A stretch of DNA of 64,000 bases from Microgenomates group bacterium (GCA_049287205.1 JBAQFJ010000001.1:511041-575040), one strand, 5' to 3'. Positions 40,739 through 64,000 are shown, counted from the stretch's first letter. Notes: generated by a model from the letters alone, not told the origin. Translations and numbers: made by a program.

Positions 40739-43713
40739 AATGAATTTGTATGTTTTCTTTGTATGTATACAATCAATCCAACGCCACCCAATAAACCCAA
40801 CATTGTTACCATGCCACCGATATAAAACGTCCGTTGCGGTTCATAAACAATGGAAAACGTATGTGTGTCCTGTAGCTCCAATACCCAAGCGTTTGCATAC
40901 CCGTTTGCCCGAATATGATATTCTTCAGGAATTGCTTTTCCGTCAACTAACAATTTCCATCGGACATCAAACTGCTCATTAAACACTATTGTTGAAGGAC
41001 TTGAGGACGCCATTATTTCACCTGAATAGCTACTTGGATGTATCTCAGTAAAACGTACTTGACCACTTGATTTTGTACTCGGTTTCTCCCTGACAAAATA
41101 TATATTTTCAATTGTTGGAAGCAGGGCGTCTTGATTAAGAACAGTAATTTTATGGTATCCCTCAGTTAGACTAACTGTGCCGGATGAAGTCGATTGTGAG
41201 TCTATAAAAACCCTATGTAACGGTATCGCGCTATGAACCGTATATGCATCGGTTTGCGGTATTTCTACCTCAATTTTATACGTGGTTGTATCTGTCGTCA
41301 GCCAAGATTCCGCGCGAAGTGTTTTTTCAAACGCAACTATATTTTTACTGACTTCCTTTTGATTTTCATCAATTCCCATGGTGGCAACATAATGCTTTTG
41401 TGCTTGTACAAACGACAGGATTCGTATCACATAATCATTTTTTATTTTGCCGGTCAAACTACTGATTTCCTCAATCACAGTTTTCATCAGAACTGTATAG
41501 TCTTCAAAATTAACGGCGGACTCCGACAGATTATTTTGAAGAGTATTCCATTTCGCCTTCTGCAAATTCGTGTTTGCAATCATTATTTGCGCATCTATTG
41601 TTGACTGTATCGATGTTGCTGTTTCCAAGGAAGTTTTTTCGAAGTATTCTTTTCGTTTGAACAATATCGATCCTGGGGCATACGTTAAATCCGTTATTGA
41701 AAGACCGTTATCAATAGCATCTCGTTCCTTTTGGCTACATGCCACACATGTTGCCTGCGTCACATCCATCGTTGAGACAGTATCCAGTAGTGTAGCGGCA
41801 GAGGCGTGAATAGTATCAACGACTATTGTTTCCTTATTTTGTGCAAACGCCATAAAGACATCTGCGTGTGACACATCTTTTCCGTGCGCAGTAATGATAT
41901 CCGATCCAATATATATTTTGGATACGGCGACGGACGCCGGAATTTTGTACAAAGTCCATAAACCGATATTCTTAACCTCAACAAATGACCACGAAAGAAA
42001 ATTCTTCTTTTGCCAAACGATTGACCGATTATCCTGATACTCATTTTTATATACTGCATCATCTCTCCATAATATATATGTGATGCCTAACGTTTCAGCG
42101 ATCCGTATAAACCGATCTCTATCGTTTGTTCGAAGTGACTCATATAAACGAGTTATCATTTGGTTTGCGTCATTGTCATTTGCAATGAGCCCTCGTGACA
42201 TAACGCTTCGCGGTAATATATCCAGACTAAAATACCCCCATGACGATGTATCGAGAAGCACGTTGTAATATCCCGAATCTAAGGCGGGTAAAATCGCAAT
42301 CCGTGCATCCTTCTCAGTTGTTGTATTAACGAATTGCCCCATATCGTTCACATAGGAAGGGACAGACACGCGAGTACTAAACGGATTCATAAACGTAAAT
42401 ACATCCTTAGTAAAAAATGGATAATGATACGCAAGTATATATCCAAGGAGCACACTGCTTATCAGAAGTGCAAGAGTTTTTGACCGTATAGAAAGAATAC
42501 ATCGATGTAACGTATATCCCGATAACATAATGATGGGAATCCACACCATAGGCGCAAACTTATAAAAACTTGATCTAAAAATCGCGAACCCTGGTATATG
42601 CCGCATAGCCCATGTAAAAAGAAAGCCAAACGGCGGGTGTGAACCAGCGGCCAACACCAACCCAACCAACAACACAAGGAACAAACCAATGAGAAGCTGA
42701 TAGTTCTTTTCGACTTTCTGGGTAACCATTCCTCTGACAAAAAATATGGAGCCTACAAATGTAATGAACGCTGGGACGAAACTCAGAAAAACAAGTAAAG
42801 GATTTGTCAAAAAAGGCTTCGCAAACAAATTATTCGTATTATCATACCAATCCGGTATTCCCTGTAATCGAAGCAGATTTATAAAACTTGCATTCTTACT
42901 GATTCCCTGTTCCCATGCAATCAGCCCTTCCATTCCCCCGTTGTCACCAAGAGCCTGCGCATAGGTAGTCAGATACAAATGCATTTGAGGAAAAATCCAG
43001 TAGAAATTCAACACAATAAATGAGAGCAAGAATGCGCAACCAACAGTGAGACATCGTTTTATTTCGGTTCGTCCATTTTTTCTTATCGCGTATATTGAAA
43101 ACCAGACATAACAAATGAATAACGTCATTACAGTCGATCCATACAAGGGAGGCGATCCGCCGCCATTAAGTAAAAAATATAAGACTCCAAAATAGAGCGC
43201 GTTTATACCAATCGACTTTCTTTGTATGATTGACCGATAGAAAAGTGCAATTGCTATAGGCAAGGCCGCAAAGAGTGAAAACTTGGCACGTTCTCCAATA
43301 AACCACCCTTGAAAAACATAGAAGTTGAACATGGCAAATATGGATGACCATAAACGCAGGAAACGATATTTTTGATCAGAAAATAGAATATACACACCCA
43401 GCCACATACCAAACCCAAGGGTAAAAAACCAACCTATTAGGGCGAGCCGTTGTCCCCATAGCACTGACCCCGTAATTGCAGAAAAAAGCGTTTCAGGAAA
43501 TTGTGTTATAAGAAACGCTTTATATAACGACCAATCCTTTCCTATATTAATATAGGGATTCCAGGAATAAAAAATATTTTTCAGATGTTCAAGAGGAGCC
43601 AATCGGAAACCGCTATCGTGCCCCAACAACATCTGACCATCACGAAACCACAAGAGAGGAACTAATGAAAGGAGAAGTAGGAGTACGATCTCTCCCCAGA
43701 CTTTTTTTCTCAT
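40735..43713 (-). CDS. Very large polytopic membrane protein (992 aa), YfhO/AftD-like GT-C or polymerase candidate with a long C-terminal extracytoplasmic domain
   Basis: About 14 N-terminal TM helices; conserved PPFG...IPGF.IFR..FYKF block; roughly 550-aa soluble region; final TM helix (GGMVTMLGLLGGVGLIVYI) near the C-terminus. Confidence 0.4.
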   Translation of the reverse strand: MRKKVWGEIVLLLLLSLVPLLWFRDGQMLLGHDSGFRLAPLEHLKNIFYSWNPYINIGKDWSLYKAFLITQFPETLFSAITGSVLWGQRLALIGWFFTLGFGMWLGVYILFSDQKYRFLRLWSSIFAMFNFYVFQGWFIGERAKFSLFAALPIAIALFYRSIIQRKSIGINALYFGVLYFLLNGGGSPPLYGSTVMTLFICYVWFSIYAIRKNGRTEIKRCLTVGCAFLLSFIVLNFYWIFPQMHLYLTTYAQALGDNGGMEGLIAWEQGISKNASFINLLRLQGIPDWYDNTNNLFAKPFLTNPLLVFLSFVPAFITFVGSIFFVRGMVTQKVEKNYQLLIGLFLVLLVGLVLAAGSHPPFGFLFTWAMRHIPGFAIFRSSFYKFAPMVWIPIIMLSGYTLHRCILSIRSKTLALLISSVLLGYILAYHYPFFTKDVFTFMNPFSTRVSVPSYVNDMGQFVNTTTEKDARIAILPALDSGYYNVLLDTSSWGYFSLDILPRSVMSRGLIANDNDANQMITRLYESLRTNDRDRFIRIAETLGITYILWRDDAVYKNEYQDNRSIVWQKKNFLSWSFVEVKNIGLWTLYKIPASVAVSKIYIGSDIITAHGKDVSHADVFMAFAQNKETIVVDTIHASAATLLDTVSTMDVTQATCVACSQKERDAIDNGLSITDLTYAPGSILFKRKEYFEKTSLETATSIQSTIDAQIMIANTNLQKAKWNTLQNNLSESAVNFEDYTVLMKTVIEEISSLTGKIKNDYVIRILSFVQAQKHYVATMGIDENQKEVSKNIVAFEKTLRAESWLTTDTTTYKIEVEIPQTDAYTVHSAIPLHRVFIDSQSTSSGTVSLTEGYHKITVLNQDALLPTIENIYFVREKPSTKSSGQVRFTEIHPSSYSGEIMASSSPSTIVFNEQFDVRWKLLVDGKAIPEEYHIRANGYANAWVLELQDTHTFSIVYEPQRTFYIGGMVTMLGLLGGVGLIVYIQRKHTNSL

Positions 43714-43728
43714 ACTAGTATTATACCG

Positions 43729-44391
43729 TTATCTCCAAGCAACGAGAAGCGTTGTCGACACGAATCCTGGAACAGAGATATAAAAAGGTAACGGAATATT
43801 TAACGACCGATGAATTCTCCACAATAGCGGGAAGAATGACATGGGTTTACACACAATGTGCGTAAATCCCGCTTTCATAAACATCTTTTTCCATTCTTCA
43901 GGATATTTCACATTCAGGTGTGTCGGATCCGCTAAATTTTTCTGAAACGGAAATGGCGATGAGCCAATAAACTTTCCTCCAGGCTTTAATGCTTTATATA
44001 TATTTGACACTCCTTCAGATGGGTACGGCAGATGCTCTAGAACCTCAAAGCCAATGATGTAATCGTATTTAATTTTTGTGGGAATACTTTTTTGTATATC
44101 ACAGTAGATGAACGGAATATTGCCAATGAAGGTATGAGCATTCTTAATCATCATTTTTGAAACATCGCTACCGGTAATATCAGCGCCTTGGTTTTTTAAC
44201 AGATAACATACTCCCCCAGCCCCGCTACCTATCTCAATAACTTTCTTGCCCGCAAATTGAATATTGTATGTTGCCTGAATGTACGTTATCCAACCCCAAT
44301 ACCAGTTGGCGTATTTCAACACATCATGTTTCGTCCATGATGTGGCAATCGGTCGAAGATAGGTTTGAAAATATTGATCCCACTTTGACAT
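43729..44391 (-). CDS. Class I SAM-dependent methyltransferase
   Basis: VIEIGSGAGGVCYLL (motif I), ...GSDVS (post-I acidic), IIGFEVLEHLPYP, LKPGGKFIGSSP. Confidence 0.7.
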   Translation of the reverse strand: MSKWDQYFQTYLRPIATSWTKHDVLKYANWYWGWITYIQATYNIQFAGKKVIEIGSGAGGVCYLLKNQGADITGSDVSKMMIKNAHTFIGNIPFIYCDIQKSIPTKIKYDYIIGFEVLEHLPYPSEGVSNIYKALKPGGKFIGSSPFPFQKNLADPTHLNVKYPEEWKKMFMKAGFTHIVCKPMSFFPLLWRIHRSLNIPLPFYISVPGFVSTTLLVAWR

Positions 44392-44393
44392 AA

Positions 44394-45638
44394 TTATGTA
44401 TATTGAAGAAAAAATTTACTACATGTTCGTTTCATGTAGTTAATCATTTCAACGGTAATTCCCGGCCAGACCCCAACCCAAAATCCGTTATTCATAATGA
44501 TATCTGAATTATTCAGCTTGCCCACAATCCTGATATCTTTTCTGTTCATATAGGCGGGATGTTTCAATAAATTCCCTGCAAAAAGAGGACGCGTCCCAAT
44601 GTTATTATTTTCCAAAAATTCCACAAGTTGAGATTTAGTAAATGGGGCATCCTTTTTAACAATCAGCATAAATCCAAACCAACAGGGATCAGCTTCTTTC
44701 TCCCATGTTGGCAAAATAAAATATTTTTCATACTTTTTAAAAAAGGCGTATAATTTTTTAAAATTATCCTTACGCTTTTTGATAAATGTCGGAAGTTTTT
44801 TGAGTTGCGCGACCCCAATGGCCGCCTGAAAATCTGTAAGTTTCAGATTATATCCAATCTGTGAATACGTATATTTATGGTCATATCCATACGGTAAATC
44901 ACCTAATTGCCATGTAAAGCGTTTACCGCACGTGTTATCTTTTCCGGTATCACACCAGCAATCACGTCCCCAATCTCGAAATTGTCGAATAGCACGATGA
45001 ATAAGCGAATTATCAGTCACTATTGCACCACCCTCACCCATTGTTATCTGATGAGCAGGATAAAAGGAAAATGTGGAAATGTGTCCAAAAGTACCAGCCA
45101 ATTTCCCATTATATGTACCTCCTAAAGCATCGCAACAATCCTCAATCAACCAAAGATCATATTTTTTCACTAAACCAAGAATTTCATCCATTGGCATAAC
45201 ATTCCCTAATGCATGAGCCAACATGATAGCTTTGGTCTTTTTGGAAATCGCTTTTTCAATAGATTGAGCAGTTACATTACGTGATCCAAGATCAACATCG
45301 ATAAATACAGGGACAAGTTTATTTTGAATAATTGGATTCACTGTTGTCGGAAAAGCGCACGCAGTTGTAATCACTTCGTCGCCTGGTTGTAAAGCCTTTT
45401 TCCCAAACACAGATGAAGTGAGTGCCGTTAACGCAACAAGATTAGCTGAAGAACCTGAATTGAAGAGCGTGACACATTTTCTTCCTAAATACGAAGAAAA
45501 ATTCTTTTCAAAAATTTTAGAAAATTCCCCTTCAGTCCACCAACCATCACGTGCGACTTTAATAGCATTATTTATCTCTGCTTGATCGAATACTTTACCT
45601 GAAGCCGGTATATACTTAATCTTTGTTACATTTTTCAT
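44394..45638 (-). CDS. ddhC: CDP-6-deoxy-D-xylo-4-hexulose-3-dehydrase (E1; RfbH/DdhC)
   Basis: DGWWTEGEF, SGSSANLVALTALTS, LWLIEDCCDALGG, FSFYPAHQITMGEGG (His in place of the aminotransferase Lys), FRDWGRDCWCDTGKDNTCGKRF and GYDHKYTYS. Cys169-X57-Cys227-X1-Cys229-X7-Cys237 reproduces the E1 [2Fe-2S] motif. Confidence 0.9.
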   Translation of the reverse strand: MKNVTKIKYIPASGKVFDQAEINNAIKVARDGWWTEGEFSKIFEKNFSSYLGRKCVTLFNSGSSANLVALTALTSSVFGKKALQPGDEVITTACAFPTTVNPIIQNKLVPVFIDVDLGSRNVTAQSIEKAISKKTKAIMLAHALGNVMPMDEILGLVKKYDLWLIEDCCDALGGTYNGKLAGTFGHISTFSFYPAHQITMGEGGAIVTDNSLIHRAIRQFRDWGRDCWCDTGKDNTCGKRFTWQLGDLPYGYDHKYTYSQIGYNLKLTDFQAAIGVAQLKKLPTFIKKRKDNFKKLYAFFKKYEKYFILPTWEKEADPCWFGFMLIVKKDAPFTKSQLVEFLENNNIGTRPLFAGNLLKHPAYMNRKDIRIVGKLNNSDIIMNNGFWVGVWPGITVEMINYMKRTCSKFFLQYT

Positions 45639-45675
45639 AATAAGAACACATCTATATTGCTCATTCTAAGCGACA

Positions 45676-46563
45676 TTAAATTAATGATAAAATTTCAGTT
45701 CTTTTTATAAGCGGGAGTCTTCCCACATACCAATCTGCCAAAACTCTAATTGTCTTATCAAAATTTGTATATTGAAAATTAGGAATTTCTTTATTCAACC
45801 TTTTTATTGAGCATGTATATTCGAAATTCGATTCTTTATCTAGTACCGTAATCTTTTGTGGTTTATTCATAACAAACAAAATGCGCTTTGCCATGGTTAA
45901 AAAATCCCTAGGCTTACCAGATCCGATATTATATGTAGAATACTTTGGTTTGTTGTTAATAAAGTGCTCAAGTATTCTAACAAAATCATTTATATATAAA
46001 TAATCAAATTTCGCGTTGTGACGTATAGTTATAGGAATATCTAATAGGGCTTGGCAAATTATATTTGATACAAATCTGAAACGATATTCTTCATATTTTC
46101 CATAAACCCCAAAAAGTCTTAAATTATATATAGGTAATTTTGTTTCTTCTATAAAGGAGGCAACAGTATATTTATATAAGCCAAAATCATCTGAAGGCAT
46201 TCGTTTCCCAAAGTCTTTTTCTTCAGCTTTATGAATGGATGCTTGTTTACCAAATTCAGCACCAGATCCAAAATAGATCATACGTTTAAAATATTGTTTA
46301 CATCTTACAAAATTTAAAAAAATACGAATATTTGATGAAATTATATTTGTACACTCAGCCTCACTTTTTTTACCCCCAATATTGGCCGCGTGAATAATGA
46401 TATCTGAAGGATGATTTCTTAAACATTTTTCTACTTCATTTTCATCTAATAAATTTAATTCTTGATGGGTAGGAGCATAAATATGATATCTAGATGCTAA
46501 CTGCTCAACAATATTATGTCCGATAAAACCACTTCCACCAGTAAGAAATATTGTTTTTGACAT
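45676..46563 (-). CDS. NAD(P)-dependent sugar epimerase/reductase (CDP-abequose/paratose-synthase- or YerF-like 4-ketoreductase candidate)
   Basis: MSKTIFLTGGSGFIGHNIVEQL Rossmann start; 295 aa extended SDR; adjacent to ddhC and the TPP enzyme. Confidence 0.6.
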   Translation of the reverse strand: MSKTIFLTGGSGFIGHNIVEQLASRYHIYAPTHQELNLLDENEVEKCLRNHPSDIIIHAANIGGKKSEAECTNIISSNIRIFLNFVRCKQYFKRMIYFGSGAEFGKQASIHKAEEKDFGKRMPSDDFGLYKYTVASFIEETKLPIYNLRLFGVYGKYEEYRFRFVSNIICQALLDIPITIRHNAKFDYLYINDFVRILEHFINNKPKYSTYNIGSGKPRDFLTMAKRILFVMNKPQKITVLDKESNFEYTCSIKRLNKEIPNFQYTNFDKTIRVLADWYVGRLPLIKRTEILSLI

Positions 46564-46583
46564 GACTAATTATTTGAATACTT

Positions 46584-48407
46584 TTAACCCTCTTTAAGAG
46601 GTTCAATAATCATATTCTCATGAAATTCATCTCTGGGCAAAAACGGGTACATATCTTCTAATGGTTTCGATATAATCTTTCCATTAGAGTCTCTCATAGA
46701 ACTTACTTTTGGAAGAAATGGCTGATGCGGATCTAAAATGACCTCAATCAACATTGGTCCTTTTCTTGACAAAATAGTAAAAATTTTTTTCTTCAACTCA
46801 TTATGAGTTTGAATTCTATCTGTCGCAATTCCGTATGCTTTAGCTATCTTAATAAAATCAGGACATGACACTCCACTTTTAGGGTCACTTCCAACCAAGA
46901 AGCCTTCAAAATAAGCCGATTGAGTATGTTTAATACTTAGATATCCTTGATTGTTAAAAACAAATAACTTAATAGGTAAATTATGAAAAACCATTGTTTG
47001 CAGCTCTTGAAGATTCATTTCTAATCCTCCATCTCCGTGAACACAAATCACTTGTTTATTTAAATCAGCAAAACATGAACCAATTGCTGCAGGTAAACCG
47101 TATCCCATCGGTGCACAACCACCATTAGTAAAATATCTTTGACCCCTCTTCAACTTCAATGCTTGAGAGGAACTATAGAAAGTCGCACCTTGATCAGTGA
47201 TAACAGTATCATTTGGAGAAAGATAATCCGACAATATATCAAAAAAATAATATGAATTAACATACCTTTTTGATTTATCTTCTTTCATCTCAACTAAAGG
47301 AAATCGATCTCTCCAAGTTTTACATCTGTCAACCCATACGTTAGTTTGTAGACGTTGGCGACCCAATTCTCTACCCAATCTTTGAAAAAAATCTTTTAGA
47401 TCCGCATGTATTACAACGTCTGTGTTAATAAGTGGATGTTTTAATTGGGCTTCGTCAATATCAACAACTATTTTCTTTGCTTCTCTTGCAAATAATTTAG
47501 TTTCGTATCCAACCACCGTCAAAGGCAAACTGGATCCTAATGAAAGCACCAAATCGGCATTCTGCACAGCGAAATTCGCGGCACGTTGCCCATTAATACC
47601 TATACTACCAACACGGAGAGGGTGCTTATAATAAATAAGGTCAAAACCATTTTTTGTCGTGACTACTGGAATTTGATATTTCTCTATAAATTTTAAAAAC
47701 TTATCTTCTGAATGTGAGAGTCTAATGCCATTTCCGGCAATTATAATTGGTCTGTCGGATTTCTTTAATAATTTAACCAAAATTTTTATTTTTTTCGTCT
47801 CATTTTTATGACCAGCTTTAATACCCACTATTTCCTTTTGTGGAAAATATCTAGGCAACATTCTTTCATCTATCATCTTTGCTTGAATATCCAACGGTAT
47901 GGCTATCCAAACTGGACCTGGACGACCAGTTTTAGCTAAAAATACAGACTTTTCTAAATGATATCTAATGGTTGTTTCATCTGTTATTGTCACAGCATAT
48001 TTCGTAATACTCTCGACTAATTTCGTGATATCAACTTCCTGCACGCCTCTTTGTCTTCTCCCAGTATTTCCGATAAGTAATTTTGAATTAGCTTGTCCTG
48101 ATATAAATATAACTGGAATCGAATCATCCCAAGAACACATAACCCCAGTTATAGTGTTTGTTCCACCAGGACCCGTTGTTACCATGGCTACTCCAAGATT
48201 ATTGGTTGTCCGTTGATATCCCTCTGCAGATATTGCACACGCCTGTTCGTGATGATTACATATATACTTAATATCTTTACTTCTTCCCAAAGAATCAAAT
48301 AAATACATGCCACCTCCACCTGATACCATAAATATATGTTTAACGCCTTGTTGAGCAATAAACTTCATAACGTAATCAGATAAGCGAATTAGTTTTTTTC
48401 CATTCAT
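46584..48407 (-). CDS. Thiamine-diphosphate-dependent enzyme, acetolactate-synthase-like (YerE-like branched-chain sugar synthase candidate)
   Basis: 607 aa; TPP N-domain (GVKHIFMVSGGGGMY...GVAMVTTGPGGTN), central domain, TPP C-domain with the GDG...N Mg-binding motif (ICVHGDGGLEMNLQELQT). Confidence 0.8.
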   Translation of the reverse strand: MNGKKLIRLSDYVMKFIAQQGVKHIFMVSGGGGMYLFDSLGRSKDIKYICNHHEQACAISAEGYQRTTNNLGVAMVTTGPGGTNTITGVMCSWDDSIPVIFISGQANSKLLIGNTGRRQRGVQEVDITKLVESITKYAVTITDETTIRYHLEKSVFLAKTGRPGPVWIAIPLDIQAKMIDERMLPRYFPQKEIVGIKAGHKNETKKIKILVKLLKKSDRPIIIAGNGIRLSHSEDKFLKFIEKYQIPVVTTKNGFDLIYYKHPLRVGSIGINGQRAANFAVQNADLVLSLGSSLPLTVVGYETKLFAREAKKIVVDIDEAQLKHPLINTDVVIHADLKDFFQRLGRELGRQRLQTNVWVDRCKTWRDRFPLVEMKEDKSKRYVNSYYFFDILSDYLSPNDTVITDQGATFYSSSQALKLKRGQRYFTNGGCAPMGYGLPAAIGSCFADLNKQVICVHGDGGLEMNLQELQTMVFHNLPIKLFVFNNQGYLSIKHTQSAYFEGFLVGSDPKSGVSCPDFIKIAKAYGIATDRIQTHNELKKKIFTILSRKGPMLIEVILDPHQPFLPKVSSMRDSNGKIISKPLEDMYPFLPRDEFHENMIIEPLKEG

Positions 48408-50134
48408 AATTTATTATTTATTTTTAATAAATTCTTATAAAATTTTATGTGCGATGTCGGTGTAATTATAAATAAAGGTATACCTTTAACAACTAAATAA
48501 TCCGATAATAAATCCAATTGAACACTAAAATTTTCGTACTTTTTTGATGACACTTCTTTGTCTTCCTTTAATCCATCTTCATTATAGAAGTATTGAATTT
48601 CCTTTGTCTTTTTATCTTTATAACCATCCATTCCTACAACTAAAATTTCTTTCGCGCCCATTTGAATCGCAGTTAATATCGCGGCAACACCCACGTTCAA
48701 GTAAGCATGATTCTGCACTATGTCACTTATCAACGAATGTTCTGACCTATCAACCAATGCAATCTCAATATATTCTCGTTTCCCGATAAAATTTTCATTT
48801 ACTAAGTTCTTTCCAAAATATGAAGGTATTAATAAAATACTTCGATTATCTACTGTTGAAGAATATCTAAGAAATCTTTTCTTGCTTACGAATATATGAT
48901 AATTTGGTTTATATAGACCCTCTAGATAATTACAACCTATAGTTACAAGCTTTTCTTTTTTTATTAATTTGTTGATTGTTTTTTTATATTTTTTTATAGT
49001 AGGGCCATTGGCTATAATTAAAAATCTTTTATTTTTGTGTTTATTTGTAAAAACAACATCTTTCAAATGAAATGCATCTTTCGATGGAAACAGTTTAACT
49101 TGTTCCTCAATTTCTTCAACCACTGTTTTAGCGCTATCACGGGAAGGAACATAGAGGCGTTGTTGTAATGATGTGTCTAATTTATTTTTATTAAATGAAA
49201 TTGGACAGTCTTGTTTAATATGATCCAAAACATTCCATATCTCTTCGATAGTAAAATTTCCAGTTTTAATCAATTCATCAACATAATAGGGATGAATATT
49301 TCTACCTCCACTCAGTAAAGTTTTTAATGAGTATCCCCATTTTAATTCATCTTTTAATTTTAGATAAAAACGATCAATGACATCTAGATATGGAACTACG
49401 TTGTATTTTACATCACCCTTAGTTTGTAAATAATTTAGCAATATTTCGATCGGGAGATTTCCCGCCCCTCTACCCATACCGTATATCGATGCATCAACAT
49501 AACCTACACCATCGTTTATGGCTTGCAAGGCATTAGCGAAAGCCATTTGTAAATTGTTATGAGAATGAAATCCAATATTTTTAAAACCAATATGTTTCAA
49601 TTTTCTAATATACTTTGAAATATCTGATGGAATATAAGAACCAAAACTATCTGCGAAGTATACCGCCTCCAAAAATTTTCTATTCTTCCAATTTTCAATT
49701 ATATTCATCTCTAAATTTTTCCACTCTGATGAAGCCATCAGTTGCAAAAATACTAAGTATCCTTTATCAAACAGTTTTTCAATAAGATTGATTGCTTGCT
49801 TAGCTTCATATGGATATGCAGCGACTCTTATCCCCACAAAAGGCGTCAACTCTTTTCTGCATTTAGGAATTTTATAATTTGTATACTTACCCGCATCTAT
49901 CATGCAAAGTAATTTACAGTCCGTTAACGATTTAAATAAGGAATTAATATATTCTTCACGACAATATCCAAATTCTCCTAATCCAATTATGTTATTATCA
50001 TTTTTGTAACCAATTTCAAAATAATCGACTTGGGCATTTGAAGCAGCAAAATAGGAAGCCTTTACCAATGACTCATCAAAATGCCATTTGTTTATATGAC
50101 CACCATCTCTTATTGAACAATCGATTATCTTCAT
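48404..50134 (-). CDS. Fusion protein: DmpG-type class II pyruvate aldolase (HMGL-like TIM barrel) + GT42/Maf(DUF115)-like nucleotide-sugar transferase-like domain
   Basis: N-terminal IIDCSIRDGGH (D-x-x-x-RDG-xH), GFHSHNNLQMAFANALQAINDGVGYVDASIYGMGRGAGNLPIEILL (near-identical to the DmpG metal-site block). C-terminal LIIANGPTIKKY, VTIGCNYL and NVGVAAILTAIQMGAKEILVVGMDGY parallel the Cst-II/Maf motifs (GNGPS, RCNQFY, GYKEIYLSGIDFY). Confidence 0.6.
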   Translation of the reverse strand: MKIIDCSIRDGGHINKWHFDESLVKASYFAASNAQVDYFEIGYKNDNNIIGLGEFGYCREEYINSLFKSLTDCKLLCMIDAGKYTNYKIPKCRKELTPFVGIRVAAYPYEAKQAINLIEKLFDKGYLVFLQLMASSEWKNLEMNIIENWKNRKFLEAVYFADSFGSYIPSDISKYIRKLKHIGFKNIGFHSHNNLQMAFANALQAINDGVGYVDASIYGMGRGAGNLPIEILLNYLQTKGDVKYNVVPYLDVIDRFYLKLKDELKWGYSLKTLLSGGRNIHPYYVDELIKTGNFTIEEIWNVLDHIKQDCPISFNKNKLDTSLQQRLYVPSRDSAKTVVEEIEEQVKLFPSKDAFHLKDVVFTNKHKNKRFLIIANGPTIKKYKKTINKLIKKEKLVTIGCNYLEGLYKPNYHIFVSKKRFLRYSSTVDNRSILLIPSYFGKNLVNENFIGKREYIEIALVDRSEHSLISDIVQNHAYLNVGVAAILTAIQMGAKEILVVGMDGYKDKKTKEIQYFYNEDGLKEDKEVSSKKYENFSVQLDLLSDYLVVKGIPLFIITPTSHIKFYKNLLKINNKL

Positions 50135-50145
50135 TTTGCAATACC

Positions 50146-50901
50146 CTAACGTATATTTAGTTCATCATATGAATGAATAATATAATTACTGTATTTTGAT
50201 AACTCTTGAAACGATGTTTGACCCAAAGTAACACCTATTCCTGCTTTTAATCCTCCTTTAGCTGCCATAATCAAATCCATAGGAGCATCACCTAAACAAA
50301 TTGATTTATCTGCTGTTGATCCTAACATATCTAAAGCAATTTTTACATGCACCCCTGAAGCTTTCGGCAAAACTGATTGCTCTCTGCCAATATATGCGTC
50401 GATATAACTATTAAGCTTTAATAAGCTCATGCATTTCTTTGCGTTTACCACACTATCAGAAGTCACAATGGCTATTTTTATGTTCCTACTCTTTAATTTC
50501 TTCATTAAATTCTTAATTCCTGGCAATATTACAACGTAATTATCCATTTTATTTAAAAAATCTTTATGAACTTGTTCAAATAGGTTTTGAATTTCAATTT
50601 TAGATATTGTGATATTGTTATTCTTTAACTTTCTGAATAATATATCTATAATTTCTTCCCTAGATAGAATACCTACAGGACCAAATTCTAATAATTTTTG
50701 CTTAGACAAGTCGTATCCCATCCATAAACATATTTTATTAAAGAATTGTGAATTTAATTTGTAATCTTTAACGAATGCGCTACTTCGCATTTTAATAATC
50801 TCACCCCAATAAATGTGTAAGTCTTGTATAGTTCCATCTTTATCAAACAAAACAGTCTCAACGTCCTTAATACACCAATTGAGAGCACTAAAATTTATCA
50901 T
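50146..50901 (-). CDS. HAD-superfamily phosphatase (subfamily IA-like)
   Basis: Motif I LFDKDGTI, motif II IVTSD, motif IV LGDAPMD. Confidence 0.75.
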   Translation of the reverse strand: MINFSALNWCIKDVETVLFDKDGTIQDLHIYWGEIIKMRSSAFVKDYKLNSQFFNKICLWMGYDLSKQKLLEFGPVGILSREEIIDILFRKLKNNNITISKIEIQNLFEQVHKDFLNKMDNYVVILPGIKNLMKKLKSRNIKIAIVTSDSVVNAKKCMSLLKLNSYIDAYIGREQSVLPKASGVHVKIALDMLGSTADKSICLGDAPMDLIMAAKGGLKAGIGVTLGQTSFQELSKYSNYIIHSYDELNIR

Positions 50902-51938
50902 ACTAAGTACTTCAAGGTTTCATTAACTAATTCCTTTGCCTTTTTATAAGCTGAATTGAAGATAGTTTTGTTTTCAAAAAAATCTTCGTTATTTAATTCC
51001 TCTTTAATAATTTTTCGTGCAAACGATCCCAAAGACACACCGTTTGCTTGAACTTCAAATAATTTCGCCAATTTTGACGTCTTACTATTTGTTCCACCCG
51101 ACATTAGCACCCAAACAGGTAGTCTTGCCTTTTGTACGATATCAGCTGTAGCGATTGTTTGAAGTGTGGTGTTGTTGTTGTCATTTGAACCGCTCATTGG
51201 AGATCCGTCTGCCTGAACAATTGTCGTAAAATCCTTTCTGTCTTTAATAAATAATTTGATCCTGTTAATAAGTTGTTTATCGCTTAAATGAGATCTGTCT
51301 AAACAAACACTCAATATTCCCGGAAAAGCTTTGTTCATTGTTCTCCAAATGCTATATGATTCGTCATCATCTTCTGTAATAGCATGTAGTTCAATTGAAG
51401 AAACGCCTAAATCAATTAATGGTGGTAAAATTTTACGTAAATTTCTTTCTTTATACTGAAAATCAATGGCTCCAAATTTACAAACTTTTGCGCACGCGTT
51501 GCACCCTATACATTTGCTATCAATTACTAGGTATTTTTTTATACCTTTTGAATCAACTGCATTTTGAATAGCATTTTGTAAACATACAACTGAACAGGCA
51601 CCGCACGCGCGACATTTTTCCAAATTAATTCTAGCTTTCATTGCATGTGGATCCCCATTAACTCCCACGCTTACACAATAAAAATATTCCTTCCTTTTAT
51701 TCTTTGGAACTACTCGTTCGATTCCTTTTTTAGCTGCTAACACTGATTCTTTGTTTGGTGATAAATCAAAATAATGTACCCCTGCTTTTGCGTAAACAGC
51801 AACTAACCTCTCGATCATTTTATAATCCTCGTTACCAGCGCCACAAATTAGCTTGAAGCATTTCTTTTGATTGAGCAAATCTGATAATTTCATATTGTAT
51901 TTAATATTGAATAGCATGTATATGTTATCAAACAGCAT
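50898..51938 (-). CDS. TIM-barrel-like protein with an embedded 2x[4Fe-4S] ferredoxin domain
   Basis: Two CxxCxxCxxxC motifs (CRACGACSVVC and CIGCNACAKVC) at residues ~108-150. The flanks (LICGAGNEDY...VAVYAKAGVHYFDLS and C-terminal VWVLMSGGTNS...ANGVSLGS) resemble a phosphate-binding (beta/alpha)8 barrel. Confidence 0.55.
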   Translation of the reverse strand: MLFDNIYMLFNIKYNMKLSDLLNQKKCFKLICGAGNEDYKMIERLVAVYAKAGVHYFDLSPNKESVLAAKKGIERVVPKNKRKEYFYCVSVGVNGDPHAMKARINLEKCRACGACSVVCLQNAIQNAVDSKGIKKYLVIDSKCIGCNACAKVCKFGAIDFQYKERNLRKILPPLIDLGVSSIELHAITEDDDESYSIWRTMNKAFPGILSVCLDRSHLSDKQLINRIKLFIKDRKDFTTIVQADGSPMSGSNDNNNTTLQTIATADIVQKARLPVWVLMSGGTNSKTSKLAKLFEVQANGVSLGSFARKIIKEELNNEDFFENKTIFNSAYKKAKELVNETLKYLV

Positions 51939-51979
51939 TACAAAAAACCATTTGATAATCTACAATATCAATGTATTCT

Positions 51980-52930
51980 TTATTCCCTCTTAAAATATTC
52001 CTGATACCATCGAAAGACCTGCACTATCTTTTTATTAATATTATATTTCGATTTCCAACCTAATCTTCGTATTTTACGATCCTCAAGATGCTGATACGGT
52101 ATTTCATTTTTTGCTGTATTTTGTATGTCATACGCAATATGCTTTTTTAACGTTTTTTCTGCTTTTTTTATTAATTCCAAAACAGAACACGTGTCATCAG
52201 AAGAAAAATTATATGCTTCGCCTGTTATATCTTTTTTTATTTCTATAAGCTTCATATATCCTAGAGCAACGTCTTTTACATAAAGATAATCGCGAATGTA
52301 AGTACCGTCACTTCGAAGTTGTAATGGCTTACCTACAATAATGGATTGGCAGATACCTGGAATAATTCTGTCAAAATGCATATCTCCTTCGCCGTACACA
52401 TTCCCAAATCGTGTAATAACGACAGGCAATCCATAAGTTTTAAAAAACGTCTGTGCTATCAGGTCCGCACATGACTTGGATACGTCATATGGATGATCTC
52501 CTTGAAGAGGTGATGTTTCTGTATAAGCGACCTTCGTCTTTCCATATGCCTTATCTGACGAAGCAATGAGAATACGTTTGATATTTTTATCTTTCCTACA
52601 TGCTTCTAATATATTTACTGTTCCCATAATATTTGTTTCAAATGCATCATAGGGATTATCGTATGCATCTTGAACAATTGGTTGAGCTGCTAAATGTATT
52701 ACATAGGTGGGATGAATTAAGGAAAAAAATGCAGTTACCTGCTTTTTCTTTCTAATATCTACATTTCGATAAGATACTTTCTTCTCAAGGTGTTTTTCAA
52801 AAAAATAGGATTTACAGGACTTCTGAATATCGATGACAACCACCTTAAATTTTTTCTTCAAAAGAAGTTCAACAAGATGTGCACCTATAAATCCTGCTCC
52901 GCCTGTAACAACAACTGTTTCTTTTACCAT
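51980..52930 (-). CDS. NAD-dependent sugar dehydratase/epimerase, CDP-glucose 4,6-dehydratase candidate
   Basis: VVVTGGAGFIGAHL, YDVSKSCADL (YxxxK); immediately downstream of ddhA. Start set at Met10 (MVKET), 1 nt after the ddhA stop; ORF-track start is 52957. Confidence 0.55.
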   Translation of the reverse strand: MVKETVVVTGGAGFIGAHLVELLLKKKFKVVVIDIQKSCKSYFFEKHLEKKVSYRNVDIRKKKQVTAFFSLIHPTYVIHLAAQPIVQDAYDNPYDAFETNIMGTVNILEACRKDKNIKRILIASSDKAYGKTKVAYTETSPLQGDHPYDVSKSCADLIAQTFFKTYGLPVVITRFGNVYGEGDMHFDRIIPGICQSIIVGKPLQLRSDGTYIRDYLYVKDVALGYMKLIEIKKDITGEAYNFSSDDTCSVLELIKKAEKTLKKHIAYDIQNTAKNEIPYQHLEDRKIRRLGWKSKYNINKKIVQVFRWYQEYFKRE

Positions 52931-53700
52931 ACTTTCCACTCGGGGTTTTCTTTCCACTCAGTATTTAAGCGTTCAACATCTGCGTATGTATCCATGCATT
53001 GCCAATAGCCTTTATGGATGTACATAGAAAGCTGTTTTTTTTCAATAAGCCGCTTTAATGCCGGATGCTCCAATTCATTTAGCCGTAAATAATTAAAAAA
53101 AGCATATTTACAAACCATAAATCCCCCATTGACCCAATCTTGAAGAACTGGTTTCTCCACAAATGCGGTTACTCGATTATGTGTGTCTGCGCTCATTAAT
53201 CCGTATTTACTTCTTGGATATACACCTGTAACTGTTCCTATTGTTTTGTTTTTTTTATGAAAAGCGACTAATTTTTTAATATCGACATTTGCAACACCGT
53301 CACCATATGTAACCATAAAACTTTCATTTTTTGGAATGTATTTCTTCACTCGAATTATTCGTTCTCCCGGTAATGTGTCAAGTCCGGTATCAACGAAAGT
53401 TATTTTAAAATCGTCAACAAGTTTTTCATTATTCTTATCAGTGTGGATTTTTGCATTACCTGACTTTGTCGAGAGTGTAAAATCGTGTTGAAGATATTTT
53501 TGATTAAGAAAATAATCCTTTATGTAATCGCCTTTATATCCCAAAGCAATAACAAATTCATTAAAACCATAATGGCTATATATTTTCATAATATGCCATA
53601 GTATGGGCTTATTACCAATCAATACCATTGGTTTTGGTTTAAACTCAGTCTCTTCTTTAAGACGATACCCAATACCACCGCAAAGAATTACCGTTTTCAT
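52924..53700 (-). CDS. ddhA: Glucose-1-phosphate cytidylyltransferase
   Basis: MKTVILCGGIGYRLKEETEFKPKPMVLIGNKPILWHIMKIYSHYGFNEFVIALGYKGDYIKDYF closely follows the RfbF/DdhA consensus. Confidence 0.85.
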   Translation of the reverse strand: MKTVILCGGIGYRLKEETEFKPKPMVLIGNKPILWHIMKIYSHYGFNEFVIALGYKGDYIKDYFLNQKYLQHDFTLSTKSGNAKIHTDKNNEKLVDDFKITFVDTGLDTLPGERIIRVKKYIPKNESFMVTYGDGVANVDIKKLVAFHKKNKTIGTVTGVYPRSKYGLMSADTHNRVTAFVEKPVLQDWVNGGFMVCKYAFFNYLRLNELEHPALKRLIEKKQLSMYIHKGYWQCMDTYADVERLNTEWKENPEWKVW

Positions 53701-53763
53701 AATGTATGGGCATTATATACCAAATGTTAAAAATTAAAAGTTTAAATAGTTACATTATGCGAT

Positions 53764-54879: not shown

Positions 54880-54951
54880 ATAGAATCAGAAAGTCCTATT
54901 CATGTATAATATGCATATCATTTTACTGCATATAGTGAAATTGACGAAATT
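54880..54951 (+). promoter_or_regulatory. Candidate promoter for the plus-strand GT2/GT-B pair
   Basis: Extended -10 element TGTATAAT at 54903-54910 in a 72-bp divergent intergenic region; -35 not well defined. Confidence 0.3.
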
Positions 54952-55971: not shown

Positions 55972-55978
55972 TAATCCT

Positions 55979-58113: not shown

Positions 58114-58160
58114 TTTTCAAGTATAACATATCAAATAAATTCGATATAATACGTTATCTT

Positions 58161-59881: not shown

Positions 59882-59894
59882 AATAAAAACCTTA

Positions 59895-61073: not shown

Positions 61074-61090
61074 AATGACGCCATTATAAG

Positions 61091-63924: not shown

Positions 63925-64000
63925 TTATCTTGATTAATTAATACATATTCCGTAATTGATGATGTTATATCACGTACTCGTTGGTCATTCCCGTAGTAAT
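63921..64000 (-). CDS. 3' end (C-terminus) of a tandem paralog of the 62251..63924 GT-C-like gene; 5' end lies beyond the window
   Basis: The minus-strand frame ending at TGA 63921-63923 translates ...YYGNDQRVRDITSSITEYVLINQDK*, paralleling the C-terminus YYYGDDKRVHNITQEIQNEIILHQRY* of the downstream gene. The stop overlaps the next ATG (ATGA). Confidence 0.5.
   Translation of the reverse strand, partial: YYGNDQRVRDITSSITEYVLINQDK

What the first reader, a model, noticed from the sequence alone, without database searches (positions are those of the whole stretch)
48404..50134. DmpG-type pyruvate aldolase domain fused to a sialyltransferase/Maf-like (GT42/DUF115-like) domain
The N-terminal roughly 330 aa carry both diagnostic blocks of class II pyruvate-specific aldolases of the HMGL-like family. 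The first is D-C-S-I-RDG-G-H near the N-terminus. The second, GFHSHNNL...VDASIYGMGRGAGNLPIEILL, is almost identical to the 4-hydroxy-2-oxovalerate aldolase DmpG/BphI metal-site segment as I recall it. The C-terminal roughly 200 aa carry the ANGPT / GCNY / ...ILVVGMDGY pattern typical of CMP-nonulosonate-dependent transferases (Cst-II-type GT42) and Maf/DUF115 proteins. DmpG-type enzymes condense pyruvate with aldehydes to give 4-hydroxy-2-keto acids. That is the chemistry that generates 3-deoxy-2-ulosonic acids (Kdo, Kdn, sialic, pseudaminic and legionaminic acids), although known NulO synthases (NeuB, KdsA) use PEP. A single polypeptide joining such an aldolase to a nonulosonate-transferase-like domain, flanked by a HAD phosphatase, a TPP enzyme and deoxysugar genes, is an architecture I do not recognise as described. 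It may define a new route to, or use of, an ulosonic-acid-like or higher-carbon sugar.
Basis: partly seen in the sequence, partly recalled or inferred. Interest (0 to 1): 0.85.

Follow-up and report, generated by a model that had tools for sequence, protein, structure and literature searches.

The report
Pyruvate aldolase fused to sialyltransferase-fold domain
A real and widely conserved, but uncharacterised, two-domain enzyme (a pyruvate aldolase joined to a sialyltransferase-like nucleotide-binding domain) sits in a cell-surface sugar gene cluster, where it most likely supplies the long side chain of an unusual branched "higher-carbon" sugar.

Summary
Window 48404-50134 (- strand) is one uninterrupted 576-aa ORF. 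Its N-terminal ~327 aa form a DmpG-type, metal-dependent pyruvate aldolase domain. Its C-terminal ~210 aa have the Maf / MptE(DUF115) / GT42-sialyltransferase fold. It is not a frameshift artefact: more than 120 full-length relatives share the architecture, and 255 relatives were found among species-representative genomes of many bacterial phyla and archaea.

In every related locus long enough to judge, the fusion travels with an LdpA-like Fe-S protein and a HAD phosphatase, often also with an HpcH aldolase. Two clades differ in the next enzyme.
- The window's clade always has a JanthE/YerE-like ThDP carboligase plus CDP-3,6-dideoxy-4-ketohexose genes. It never has a CMP-sugar synthetase.
- The sister clade has a CMP-Kdo/NeuAc-synthetase-type cytidylyltransferase instead.

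So the module most likely makes a hydroxylated 2-oxo (3-deoxy-2-ulosonate-type) acid. In this window that acid probably serves as the acyl donor for an acyl-branched sugar, following the published erwiniose/caryophyllose scheme, and is not transferred as a CMP-ulosonate.

The role of the fused C-domain is unresolved. One motif in it changes with the downstream enzyme, which points to binding of the activated end product.

Classification: new variant of a known kind; interest moderate to high.

The parts
48404..50134 (-). Whole fusion ORF, 576 aa, soluble with no TM segment. Its stop overlaps the start of the downstream ThDP-enzyme gene by 4 bases.
49154..50134 (-). N-domain (res 1-327): DRE-TIM metallolyase, DmpG-type class II pyruvate aldolase with a helical 'communication-like' subdomain. 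Arg9, Asp10, His190 and His192 are invariant among relatives (the DmpG Arg17/Asp18/His200/His202 equivalents). His13 (the DmpG His21 equivalent) is nearly invariant in the window's clade.
   Evidence: (alignment to 1nvm and 3dxi)
49031..49153 (-). Inter-domain linker (res 328-368). Parts have low model confidence, but the conserved IIPAxDAF segment lies here.
48407..49030 (-). C-domain (res 369-576): Maf / MptE(DUF115) / GT42-sialyltransferase fold. Conserved motifs: ANGP(S/T), GxN, PxYHxF..KRF, LNV, MGA, GxDGY, FYxE, ITPTSH.
50146..50901 (-). HAD-IA phosphatase. A constant partner of the fusion in both clades.
50898..51938 (-). LdpA-like protein: DUF561/LdpA_C parts with an inserted 2x[4Fe-4S] ferredoxin domain. 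A constant partner of the fusion in both clades; role unknown.
46584..48407 (-). YerE/JanthE-like ThDP-dependent carboligase, 607 aa, immediately downstream of the fusion.
45676..46563 (-). SDR of 295 aa. Candidate side-chain ketoreductase, in the position of YerF/ErwF.
   Evidence: role inferred from PMC9306805
44394..45638 (-). RfbH/DdhC-type CDP-6-deoxy-4-hexulose 3-dehydrase (E1). It passes the NCBIfam equivalog cut-off (635 vs 423 bits).
51980..52957 (-). NDP-hexose 4,6-dehydratase. The best model is CDP-glucose 4,6-dehydratase (192 bits, below the 278 cut-off).
52924..53700 (-). Sugar-1-phosphate nucleotidyltransferase. The best model is glucose-1-phosphate cytidylyltransferase (264 bits, below the 300 cut-off).
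43729..44391 (-). SAM methyltransferase of 220 aa at the end of the operon. Possible tailoring enzyme.

Best explanation
The ORF encodes a genuine bifunctional protein that belongs to a conserved 'keto-acid module': an LdpA-like Fe-S protein, a HAD phosphatase, the fusion, and often an HpcH aldolase.

Proposed steps in this window:
1. The N-domain is a divalent-metal, DmpG-type pyruvate aldolase. It condenses pyruvate with an aldehyde, probably a phosphorylated aldose or aldehyde, to give a 4-hydroxy-2-oxo acid of the 3-deoxy-2-ulosonate type.
2. The HAD enzyme removes the phosphate.
3. The translationally coupled JanthE/YerE-like ThDP enzyme decarboxylates this acid. It adds the resulting acyl anion to C4 of CDP-4-keto-3,6-dideoxyhexose, which is made by the cytidylyltransferase, the 4,6-dehydratase and RfbH/E1.
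4. An SDR then reduces the side-chain ketone.

The product would be an acyl-branched, higher-carbon 3,6-dideoxyhexose (erwiniose/caryophyllose/gastriose type) for the surface glycan built by the neighbouring glycosyltransferases.

The C-domain has the Maf/GT42/MptE fold. It most likely binds a cytidine-nucleotide-activated end product, either as a transferase or as a feedback sensor.

Shown here: the domain identities, the conservation of catalytic residues, and the gene linkage. Inferred: substrates, order of steps, and the role of the C-domain.
For: Aldolase identity.
- DmpG-type models are the best hits.
- PDB 3dxi scores E 3e-44 and DmpG 1nvm 6.5e-16. Arg, Asp and the His-x-His metal site align and are invariant among relatives.
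- The fold is closest to DmpG-type aldolases.
- A standalone relative (36% identity) sits beside meta-cleavage genes on a Priestia plasmid.

ThDP enzyme. The best solved relative is 8rph (JanthE) at 475 bits over the full length, then 5ahk at 271 bits; acetolactate synthases score about 250 bits. 8rph is JanthE, a YerE-like enzyme that accepts 4-hydroxy-2-oxovalerate.

CDP-dideoxyhexose genes. RfbH passes its equivalog cut-off. The cytidylyltransferase and the 4,6-dehydratase have CDP-glucose models as their best hits.

Linkage.
- In 35 loci of the window's clade, the ThDP gene follows the fusion in 30. The other 5 contigs end at or just after the fusion.
- LdpA-like and HAD genes precede the fusion in most loci, and CTP_transf_3 occurs in none.

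Published precedent. Pyruvate aldolase -> gamma-hydroxy-2-oxo acid -> YerE-like ThDP ligation to CDP-4-keto-3,6-dideoxyglucose -> SDR reduction (PMC9306805).

C-domain.
- The GxDGY segment aligns to Cst-II 138-161.
- The motif about 25 residues upstream is NCRT in the lineage linked to CTP_transf_3, and LNV or (K/R)A in two separate lineages linked to the ThDP enzyme.
Against: - No biochemical data exist for any family member, and the aldehyde substrate is unknown.
- The protein misses the DmpG equivalog cut-offs by a wide margin (93 vs 286 bits).
- The DmpG His21 equivalent is Tyr in the sister clade and in 3dxi, and Leu/Phe in a few close relatives. The catalytic details may therefore differ from DmpG.
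- No E3 (DdhD/AscD-type) reductase was seen among the ORFs annotated at 35-64 kb.
- Some loci of the window's clade, such as the Omnitrophota loci L005/L007, show no CDP-hexose genes within 10 kb.
- A fused nucleotide-binding domain is not needed by the published scheme. Its presence and its strong conservation remain unexplained.
- The roles of the LdpA-like protein and of the HAD enzyme are guesses.
Confidence: 0.55

Rival explanations
1. The aldolase half makes a free ulosonic acid, this is CMP-activated, and the C-domain acts as a Cst-II/Maf-type transferase that puts the ulosonate on the glycan.
For: - The C-domain fold is closest to the Maf flagellin glycosyltransferase and to the Cst-I/II and GT29 sialyltransferases.
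- In the sister clade the operon is fusion - LdpA-like - HAD - HpcH - CTP_transf_3 in at least 25 loci.
- Standalone relatives of the C-domain lie next to CTP_transf_3 in all 3 informative loci.
Against: - CTP_transf_3 is absent from the 64-kb window and from all 35 loci of the window's clade, where a ThDP enzyme takes its place.
- The R-T motif typical of the CTP_transf_3-linked versions is replaced by L-N-V in the window's clade.
- The sister clade also carries a separate candidate transferase: the ~611-aa protein with a faint GT-B-like C-terminus.
Confidence: 0.15
2. The C-domain is an ATP-dependent (pyro)phosphokinase like MptE or thiamin pyrophosphokinase. It phosphorylates the aldehyde precursor or the product, and the HAD enzyme later removes the phosphate.
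For: - The Pfam family hit is MptE-like.
- A HAD phosphatase is a constant partner in both clades.
Against: - The top structural match is the Maf glycosyltransferase, with more aligned residues (201 vs 163).
- The clade-specific motif changes with the downstream enzyme (CMP synthetase vs ThDP enzyme), twice independently. This is unexpected for an upstream kinase.
- Phosphorylated aldehydes are available from central metabolism, so a kinase is not required.
Confidence: 0.15
3. The N-domain is an acyl-CoA-dependent Claisen condensing enzyme (IPMS / homocitrate / citramalate synthase type), not a pyruvate aldolase.
For: The Pfam HMGL-like match covers only res 157-242. IPMS/HCS models do hit that segment at 33-50 bits.
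Against: - DmpG-type models align over res 2-240 and score twice as high.
- Structural matches to DmpG-type aldolases are clearly better than those to IPMS/HCS.
- The motif is RDGGH, as in DmpG (RDGSH in the alignment), not the RDG(E/N)Q form that I recall for the synthases. That last point rests on my own knowledge.
Confidence: 0.03
4. The fusion is an assembly or frameshift artefact that joins two genes.
For: None found. Standalone versions of each half do exist elsewhere.
Against: Nearly all of the 120 best hits, and 255 genomic relatives from independent assemblies of many phyla, have the same ~575-aa single ORF with a conserved linker.
Confidence: 0.01

Closest known systems
Acyl-branched sugar pathways: erwiniose ErwI/ErwJ/ErwE/ErwF, caryophyllose MMAR_2331/2332, gastriose MygI/MyGE (Steitz et al. 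2022, PMC9306805)
   Same: A pyruvate aldolase sits next to a YerE-like ThDP carboligase, an SDR and the genes for CDP-4-keto-3,6-dideoxyhexose, in a surface-glycan cluster. The aldolase makes the 2-oxo acid donor.
   Different: - The aldolase here is fused to a Maf/GT42-fold domain.
- It has no DmpF/ErwJ-type aldehyde dehydrogenase partner.
- It is always accompanied by an LdpA-like Fe-S protein and a HAD phosphatase, none of which appear in the described clusters.
- The product sugar is unknown.
DmpG/BphI 4-hydroxy-2-oxovalerate aldolases (PDB 1nvm, 4jn6, 4lrt, 8ih7)
   Same: TIM-barrel plus helical communication-domain fold, and conserved Arg/Asp/His-x-His metal and pyruvate site.
   Different: - About 20% identity, far below the equivalog cut-offs.
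- No dehydrogenase partner.
- Biosynthetic glycan context instead of aromatic catabolism.
- The catalytic His is replaced by Tyr in the sister clade.
PDB 3dxi, 'N-terminal domain of a putative aldolase BVU_2661' from Bacteroides vulgatus (structural genomics, 2008)
   Same: Closest solved structure to the N-domain: E 3e-44 by sequence, TM 0.87 by fold. The entry title implies that the parent protein also has a further C-terminal part.
   Different: No function was assigned. I did not verify that its C-terminal part is the same domain. It has Tyr at the DmpG His21 position, like the sister clade.
Maf flagellin nonulosonate transferases (5mu5) and GT42 sialyltransferases Cst-I/Cst-II (2p56, 1ro7)
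   Different: - Only 10-18% identity.
- Profile-profile alignment covers just 24 columns.
- No equivalent of the Cst-II catalytic His188 could be assigned.
- No CMP-sugar synthetase is present in the window's clade.
- The flagellin-binding extensions of Maf are absent.
Archaeal MptE 6-hydroxymethyl-dihydropterin pyrophosphokinase (8sd5; Pfam PF01973)
   Different: The score is below the Pfam gathering cut-off for the window protein. There is no folate or methanopterin context. Active-site comparison was not possible with these tools.
Kdo/sialic acid logic: KdsA or NeuB, KdsC or NANP (HAD), KdsB or NeuA (CTP_transf_3)
   Same: The sister-clade operon has the same logic: C-C bond-forming enzyme, then HAD phosphatase, then a CTP_transf_3 cytidylyltransferase.
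   Different: The condensing enzymes are class II pyruvate aldolases (HMGL-like and HpcH), not PEP-dependent synthases. In the window itself the cytidylyltransferase is replaced by a ThDP carboligase.

Membership tests
HMGL-like / DRE-TIM metallolyase superfamily (PF00682) | Pfam model score above the gathering cut-off | tested here: met
   71.6 bits vs cut-off 29
HMGL-like / DRE-TIM metallolyase superfamily (PF00682) | Conserved Asp plus His-x-His metal ligands and the Arg of the 'DRE' signature | tested here: met
   R9, D10, H190 and H192 align with DmpG R17, D18, H200 and H202. They are invariant in 40 relatives and across both clades.
DmpG/BphI 4-hydroxy-2-oxovalerate aldolase (TIGR03217, NF006049) | Score above the NCBIfam equivalog/subfamily cut-off | tested here: not met
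   93.4 vs 286 bits and 109.4 vs 229 bits. These are the best-hitting families, but the protein is not a member.
DmpG/BphI 4-hydroxy-2-oxovalerate aldolase (TIGR03217, NF006049) | Catalytic His (DmpG His21) conserved | tested here: inconclusive
   His13 is present in the window protein and in more than 90% of the window's clade. It is Tyr in the sister clade and in 3dxi, and Leu/Phe in a few close relatives.
DmpG/BphI 4-hydroxy-2-oxovalerate aldolase (TIGR03217, NF006049) | Adjacent acylating aldehyde dehydrogenase partner (DmpF/BphJ) with aldehyde channelling | tested here: not met
   No such gene is among the ORFs annotated at 35-64 kb, nor in the related loci listed with Pfam families.
IPMS / homocitrate / citramalate synthases | Family model score and a closest fold of this type | tested here: not met
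   At most 50 bits against cut-offs of 413-950, and only over res 136-248. The fold matches are weaker than those to DmpG-type aldolases.
MptE-like / DUF115 (PF01973) | Pfam model score above the gathering cut-off | tested here: not met
   27.5 bits (whole protein) and 29.9 bits (C-domain alone) vs 34.6. All 23 relatives tested hit the family, best 1e-9, so this is a divergent relative.
MptE-like / DUF115 (PF01973) | Same fold as solved members (MptE HPPK, Maf) | tested here: met
GT42 sialyltransferases (Cst-I/Cst-II) | Fold and nucleotide-binding GxDxY segment | tested here: met
GT42 sialyltransferases (Cst-I/Cst-II) | Catalytic base His188 and the lid region | not testable with these tools
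   The profile alignment stops before this region, and model coordinates could not be superposed here. The role of His188 is from my own knowledge of the Cst-II literature.
GT42 sialyltransferases (Cst-I/Cst-II) | A CMP-ulosonate donor supplied by a co-encoded CTP_transf_3 synthetase | tested here: not met
   No CTP_transf_3 homologue in the window or in 35 loci of the window's clade. It is present in at least 25 sister-clade loci.
Acyl-branched sugar gene clusters (Steitz et al. 2022) | YerE-like ThDP carboligase adjacent to a pyruvate aldolase | tested here: met
   The ThDP enzyme's best solved relative is JanthE 8rph, 475 bits. Its gene overlaps the fusion's stop codon. Linkage holds in 30 of 35 loci.
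Acyl-branched sugar gene clusters (Steitz et al. 2022) | Genes for CDP-4-keto-3,6-dideoxyhexose (cytidylyltransferase, 4,6-dehydratase, E1, E3) | tested here: inconclusive
   E1/RfbH passes its cut-off (635 vs 423 bits). The cytidylyltransferase (264 vs 300) and the dehydratase (192 vs 278) are best hits only. No E3-type reductase was seen.
Acyl-branched sugar gene clusters (Steitz et al. 2022) | A C-branched sugar demonstrated in the organism's glycan | not testable with these tools
   The source is an uncultured Microgenomates-group MAG (name given). No glycan data are available.

The most novel reading that the evidence does not exclude
The triad of fusion, LdpA-like Fe-S protein and HAD phosphatase (with or without an HpcH aldolase) is a previously undescribed route to 3-deoxy-2-ulosonic-type acids. 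It is PEP-independent and based on pyruvate aldolases, and it is spread across many bacterial phyla and archaea. Its product is either CMP-activated (sister clade) or used as a ThDP acyl donor for long-branched sugars (this window). The fused Maf/GT42-fold domain is an integral catalytic or regulatory part that recognises the cytidine-nucleotide-activated end product. That would make it a new functional class of DUF115 proteins.
Probability: 0.35. Interest if true: 0.8.

Novelty: new variant of a known kind. Interest (0 to 1): 0.62.

Why it matters
All characterised routes to Kdo, sialic, legionaminic and pseudaminic acids use PEP-dependent synthases. A widespread module that builds keto-deoxy sugar acids from pyruvate with class II aldolases would add a second biosynthetic logic for these surface sugars. 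This module sends the acid either to a CMP-synthetase or to a YerE-like ThDP carboligase.

It would also supply the missing physiological donor for a large group of YerE/JanthE-like enzymes of biocatalytic interest, whose natural substrates are unknown (PMC12188165, PMC12247030).

It would give a first functional handle on a DUF115/MptE-like subfamily. The cassette occurs in the flagellin glycosylation island of Clostridium botulinum, a culturable organism in which the glycan could be determined. It also occurs in many candidate phyla whose surface chemistry is essentially unknown.

Tried and rejected
- A profile search of PDB sequences with the C-domain alignment found nothing relevant; the best hit was glutamate dehydrogenase at E 0.9. 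Similarity to Maf/Cst/MptE is visible only at fold level.
- hhalign of the C-domain profile against Cst-II gave only a 24-column local match. Catalytic residues outside GxDGY could therefore not be mapped.
- The LdpA-like protein matched solved structures only through its ferredoxin insert. A literature search on LdpA structure gave nothing useful.
- Literature searches for DUF115 + aldolase, MptE-like + HMGL-like, and MptE/HPPK structure papers returned nothing on this fusion. Papers on clostridial flagellar glycosylation mention predicted 3,6-dideoxyhexoses but not this cassette.
- tblastn against plasmids found no full-length fusion, only standalone N-domain relatives.
- I considered the LdpA-like protein as a replacement for the missing E3 reductase of the 3-deoxygenation step. 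I set this aside as the main role because the protein is equally conserved in sister-clade loci that lack an RfbH-type E1.
- I considered a simple catabolic DmpG role and rejected it on context: a glycan operon with no dehydrogenase partner.
- Not done: checking whether JanthE's own genomic neighbourhood holds a fusion homologue, and confirming the C-terminal domain of BVU_2661. Both would have needed further capped database searches.

Full report
**1. The observation**

Window 48404-50134 (- strand) holds a single ATG-to-stop ORF of 576 aa.
- DCSIRDGGH, res 5-13
- GFHSHNNL...VDASIYGMGRGAGNLPIEILL, res 188-233
- ANGPT, res 375-379
- GCNY, res 400-403
- ILVVGMDGY, res 497-505

The gene lies in a tight co-directional operon. 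An 11-bp gap separates it from the upstream HAD gene, and its stop overlaps the start of the downstream ThDP-enzyme gene by 4 bases. The protein has no predicted membrane segment.

**2. Domain identities**

N-domain, by sequence:
- Pfam HMGL-like PF00682 scores 71.6 bits, above the cut-off of 29.
- The best NCBIfam models are the two DmpG-type 4-hydroxy-2-oxovalerate aldolase models (109 and 93 bits, aligned over res 2-240). IPMS, homocitrate synthase and citramalate synthase models reach at most 50 bits, and only over res ~136-248.
- The DmpG scores are nevertheless far below the curated cut-offs (229 and 286 bits). The protein is DmpG-like but not a DmpG orthologue.

N-domain, against solved structures:
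- By sequence the best hit is 3dxi (E 3e-44, res 1-307), followed by DmpG 1nvm (6.5e-16).
- Arg9/Asp10/His13 align with DmpG Arg17/Asp18/His21, and His190/His192 with His200/His202.

Models:
- The AlphaFold model of the whole protein, built from a 40-sequence alignment, has mean pLDDT 86. Its pTM of 0.57 means the two domains are well modelled but their mutual orientation is not.
- Foldseek places the N-domain closest to 3dxi, titled 'N-terminal domain of a putative aldolase BVU_2661' (TM 0.87). Next come the DmpG-type aldolases 1nvm, 4jn6, 4lrt and 8ih7 (TM 0.73-0.79 over 340-360 columns, so the helical communication domain is included). IPMS/HCS structures score lower.

C-domain:
- It hits only PF01973 (MptE-like, formerly DUF115), just below the gathering score. 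All 23 C-domains of relatives hit the same family.
- Foldseek agrees.
- At sequence level the link to GT42 is thin. A PDB profile search finds nothing. hhalign against Cst-II aligns only the GxDGY segment, window 487-510 to Cst-II 138-161. The Cst-II sequence used was verified as identical to 1ro7_A.

**3. Not an artefact, and widespread**
- Of 1828 database relatives, nearly all of the 120 best are ~570-596 aa and cover 97-100% of the query; three are shorter (495-535 aa). The window's own protein is recorded from a Microgenomates-group MAG.
- The 40-sequence alignment has 92 invariant columns distributed over both halves and the linker.
- A motif scan of one genome per GTDB species found 255 relatives. 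They come from many bacterial phyla, including Omnitrophota, Planctomycetota, Elusimicrobiota, Melainabacteria, Nitrospirota, Desulfobacterota, Bacteroidota, Verrucomicrobiota, CPR and Margulisbacteria/Saganbacteria, and from several archaeal lineages.
- The C-domain subfamily is small: 240 clusters at E<=1e-3 among 1.84 billion representatives. It occurs both fused (~560-590 aa) and as standalone proteins of 205-270 aa.
- The N-domain subfamily also occurs standalone. One example lies next to meta-cleavage genes on a Priestia megaterium plasmid, which fits pyruvate aldolase chemistry.

**4. Gene context: the main evidence for function**

I searched the six-frame ORFs of 90 related loci with the window's neighbours, and with extra queries taken from sister-clade loci. 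Pfam checks were made on selected loci. Two clades emerge; an NJ tree separates them.

Clade A (43-100% identity to the window protein):
- Operon: [glucose-1-P cytidylyltransferase-like, NDP-hexose 4,6-dehydratase, RfbH/E1] + LdpA-like Fe-S protein, HAD, fusion, (HpcH aldolase in about half of the loci), ThDP enzyme, SDR.
- The ThDP gene is present in 30 of 35 loci. The five exceptions are contigs that end at or just after the fusion.
- A CTP_transf_3 gene is present in none.

Clade B (33-39% identity; includes the archaeal members):
- Operon: fusion, LdpA-like, HAD, HpcH aldolase, CTP_transf_3 cytidylyltransferase (the CMP-Kdo/CMP-NeuAc synthetase family; 139-165 bits in Pfam), and a conserved ~611-aa protein with a faint GT-B-like C-terminus.
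- CTP_transf_3 is present in at least 25 loci.
- A ThDP enzyme is present in only three loci (L046, L075, L078), which lack CTP_transf_3.

The invariant core is therefore fusion + LdpA-like + HAD. The ThDP enzyme and the CMP-synthetase are mutually exclusive alternatives downstream. Both enzyme types act at C2 of a 2-oxo acid: CTP_transf_3 enzymes activate 3-deoxy-2-ulosonic acids, and ThDP enzymes decarboxylate 2-oxo acids. That statement is established knowledge of the two families. The simplest common denominator is that the core module makes a hydroxylated 2-oxo acid.

**5. The window's own pathway**
- The ThDP enzyme (46584-48407) is closest to 8rph at 475 bits (E 3e-141, full length), then 5ahk at 271 bits. 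Acetolactate synthases score about 250 bits.
- 8rph is JanthE, a YerE-like carboligase that accepts longer donors such as 4-hydroxy-2-oxovalerate and whose physiological substrates are unknown (PMC12188165; PMC12247030).
- RfbH/DdhC (44394-45638) passes its equivalog cut-off. The cytidylyltransferase and the dehydratase have CDP-glucose models as their best hits.
- This is the arrangement described by Steitz et al. (PMC9306805) for erwiniose, caryophyllose and gastriose. A pyruvate aldolase makes a gamma-hydroxy-2-oxo acid. A YerE-like enzyme decarboxylates it and ligates it to C4 of CDP-4-keto-3,6-dideoxyglucose. An SDR reduces the side-chain ketone.

I therefore read the aldolase half as the donor-acid synthase for a long acyl-branched 3,6-dideoxyhexose. 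The constant HAD partner suggests a phosphorylated aldehyde acceptor, as in the Kdo8P/Neu5Ac-9-P logic; this is inference. The LdpA-like protein combines TIM-barrel-like DUF561/LdpA_C parts with a 2x[4Fe-4S] insert. It has no assignable role. It is not simply a substitute for the missing E3 reductase, because it is equally conserved in clade B, which lacks an RfbH-type E1.

**6. The C-domain**

Its motifs are conserved in both clades: ANGPS, GxN, PxYHxF, MGA, GxDGY, FYxE, ITPT. It is therefore a functional, ligand-binding unit.

One motif differs systematically. About 25 residues before GxDGY:
- Clade B and the standalone relatives have (N/S)CR(T/S).
- Clade A has (Y/N)LNV.
- The three ThDP-linked members nested inside clade B have (K/R)A.

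The change therefore tracks the downstream enzyme in two separate lineages.

In an ungapped extension of the Cst-II alignment, this position falls on Cst-II 129-132 (R-I-T-S). The Thr is in register and the Arg is off by one. From my recollection of the Cst-II literature, that segment contacts the CMP-sialic acid donor. I treat this as a lead and not as a test.

All three informative standalone relatives lie beside CTP_transf_3 genes in glycan clusters that also carry a 2-hydroxyacid dehydrogenase, an SDR, a PF04199 cyclase, and HpcH or NeuB.

Together these points favour a domain that recognises the nucleotide-activated end product, as a transferase or as a feedback sensor, over an upstream kinase. 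None of the three roles is excluded. In clade A the ligand would have to be something other than a CMP-ulosonate, most plausibly a CDP-sugar.

**7. Comparison with the known, and novelty**
- The window's cassette is a member-like variant of the acyl-branched sugar clusters. Three features are not in the published scheme: the fused Maf/GT42-fold domain, the LdpA-like Fe-S protein and the HAD phosphatase.
- The protein fails the membership cut-offs for DmpG orthologues and for PF01973. It lacks a DmpF partner and a CMP-sugar synthetase. It should therefore not be filed as DmpG, Maf or GT42, although it has those folds.
- No paper in the searchable library mentions the fusion. Recent work on clostridial flagellar glycosylation islands predicts 3,6-dideoxyhexoses but does not discuss these genes.
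- The cassette is present between flagellin genes in Clostridium botulinum, which offers an experimental system.

**8. Verdict**
- Observation: confirmed.
- Interpretation: partly supported. The domain calls are right, the 'undescribed architecture' claim is essentially right, and the ulosonate-transfer reading is not supported for this window but is plausible for the sister clade.
- Best explanation (confidence about 0.55): donor-acid synthase of an acyl-branched sugar pathway, with a fused cytidine-nucleotide-binding domain of unresolved role.
- Novelty: new variant of a known kind.
- Interest: 0.62.

Noticed in passing
window 44000-64000 vs 1-44000: G+C falls from about 0.40-0.43 to 0.31-0.37 across the glycan gene cluster. 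This would fit a horizontally acquired or fast-evolving surface-glycan island. GC skew is negative throughout the window.
   Followed up: no
window 37247-39100, 39104-40738, 40735-43713 and 62251-63924 (all - strand): Four large ORFs (617, 544, 992 and 557 aa) have no Pfam hit at 1e-4 but 7-12 hydrophobic segments each. They are probably glycan polymerase, flippase or transferase-like membrane proteins of unknown family.
   Followed up: partly
window 59895-61073 (-) and 59093-59881 (-): A second DegT-family gene has only partial RfbH similarity (218 bits, below the 423 cut-off). Next to it is a DUF268-type methyltransferase. This suggests a second modified sugar in the same cluster.
   Followed up: no
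L065:14969-16804, L080:16366-18225 and homologues in about 30 sister-clade loci: A conserved soluble protein of ~611 aa follows the CTP_transf_3 gene in the sister clade. It has no solid Pfam hit, only faint matches to DUF6716 'putative glycosyltransferase' and Epimerase_2 in its C-terminus. It may be the transferase for the CMP-activated product.
   Followed up: partly
L089, L091, L093 (contexts of standalone C-domain relatives P0145, P0135, P0142): A recurring uncharacterised module: CTP_transf_3, 2-hydroxyacid dehydrogenase, SDR, PF04199 cyclase and a standalone MptE-like protein. HpcH aldolase or NeuB and B12-radical-SAM genes lie nearby.
   Followed up: partly
fusion residue 13 (window about 50096-50098) and the equivalent position in relatives: The position of the DmpG catalytic His21 is His in the window's clade. 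It is Tyr in nearly all sister-clade proteins and in PDB 3dxi, and Leu or Phe in a few close relatives. The aldol mechanism may not be uniform in the family.
   Followed up: partly
L001-L003 (Clostridium botulinum): The cassette lies between flagellin genes, together with large GT2/TPR proteins and a TagF-like (PF04464) CDP-glycerol-type transferase. Here an HpcH aldolase occupies the place of the HAD gene.
   Followed up: partly
sister-clade loci, e.g. L080:13417-14793: B12-binding radical SAM genes are frequent in sister-clade loci, sometimes inserted between the LdpA-like and HAD genes. This hints at C-methylation or other radical tailoring of the product.
   Followed up: no
window 1-64000: No tRNA or tmRNA genes were found in the whole window.
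   Followed up: yes
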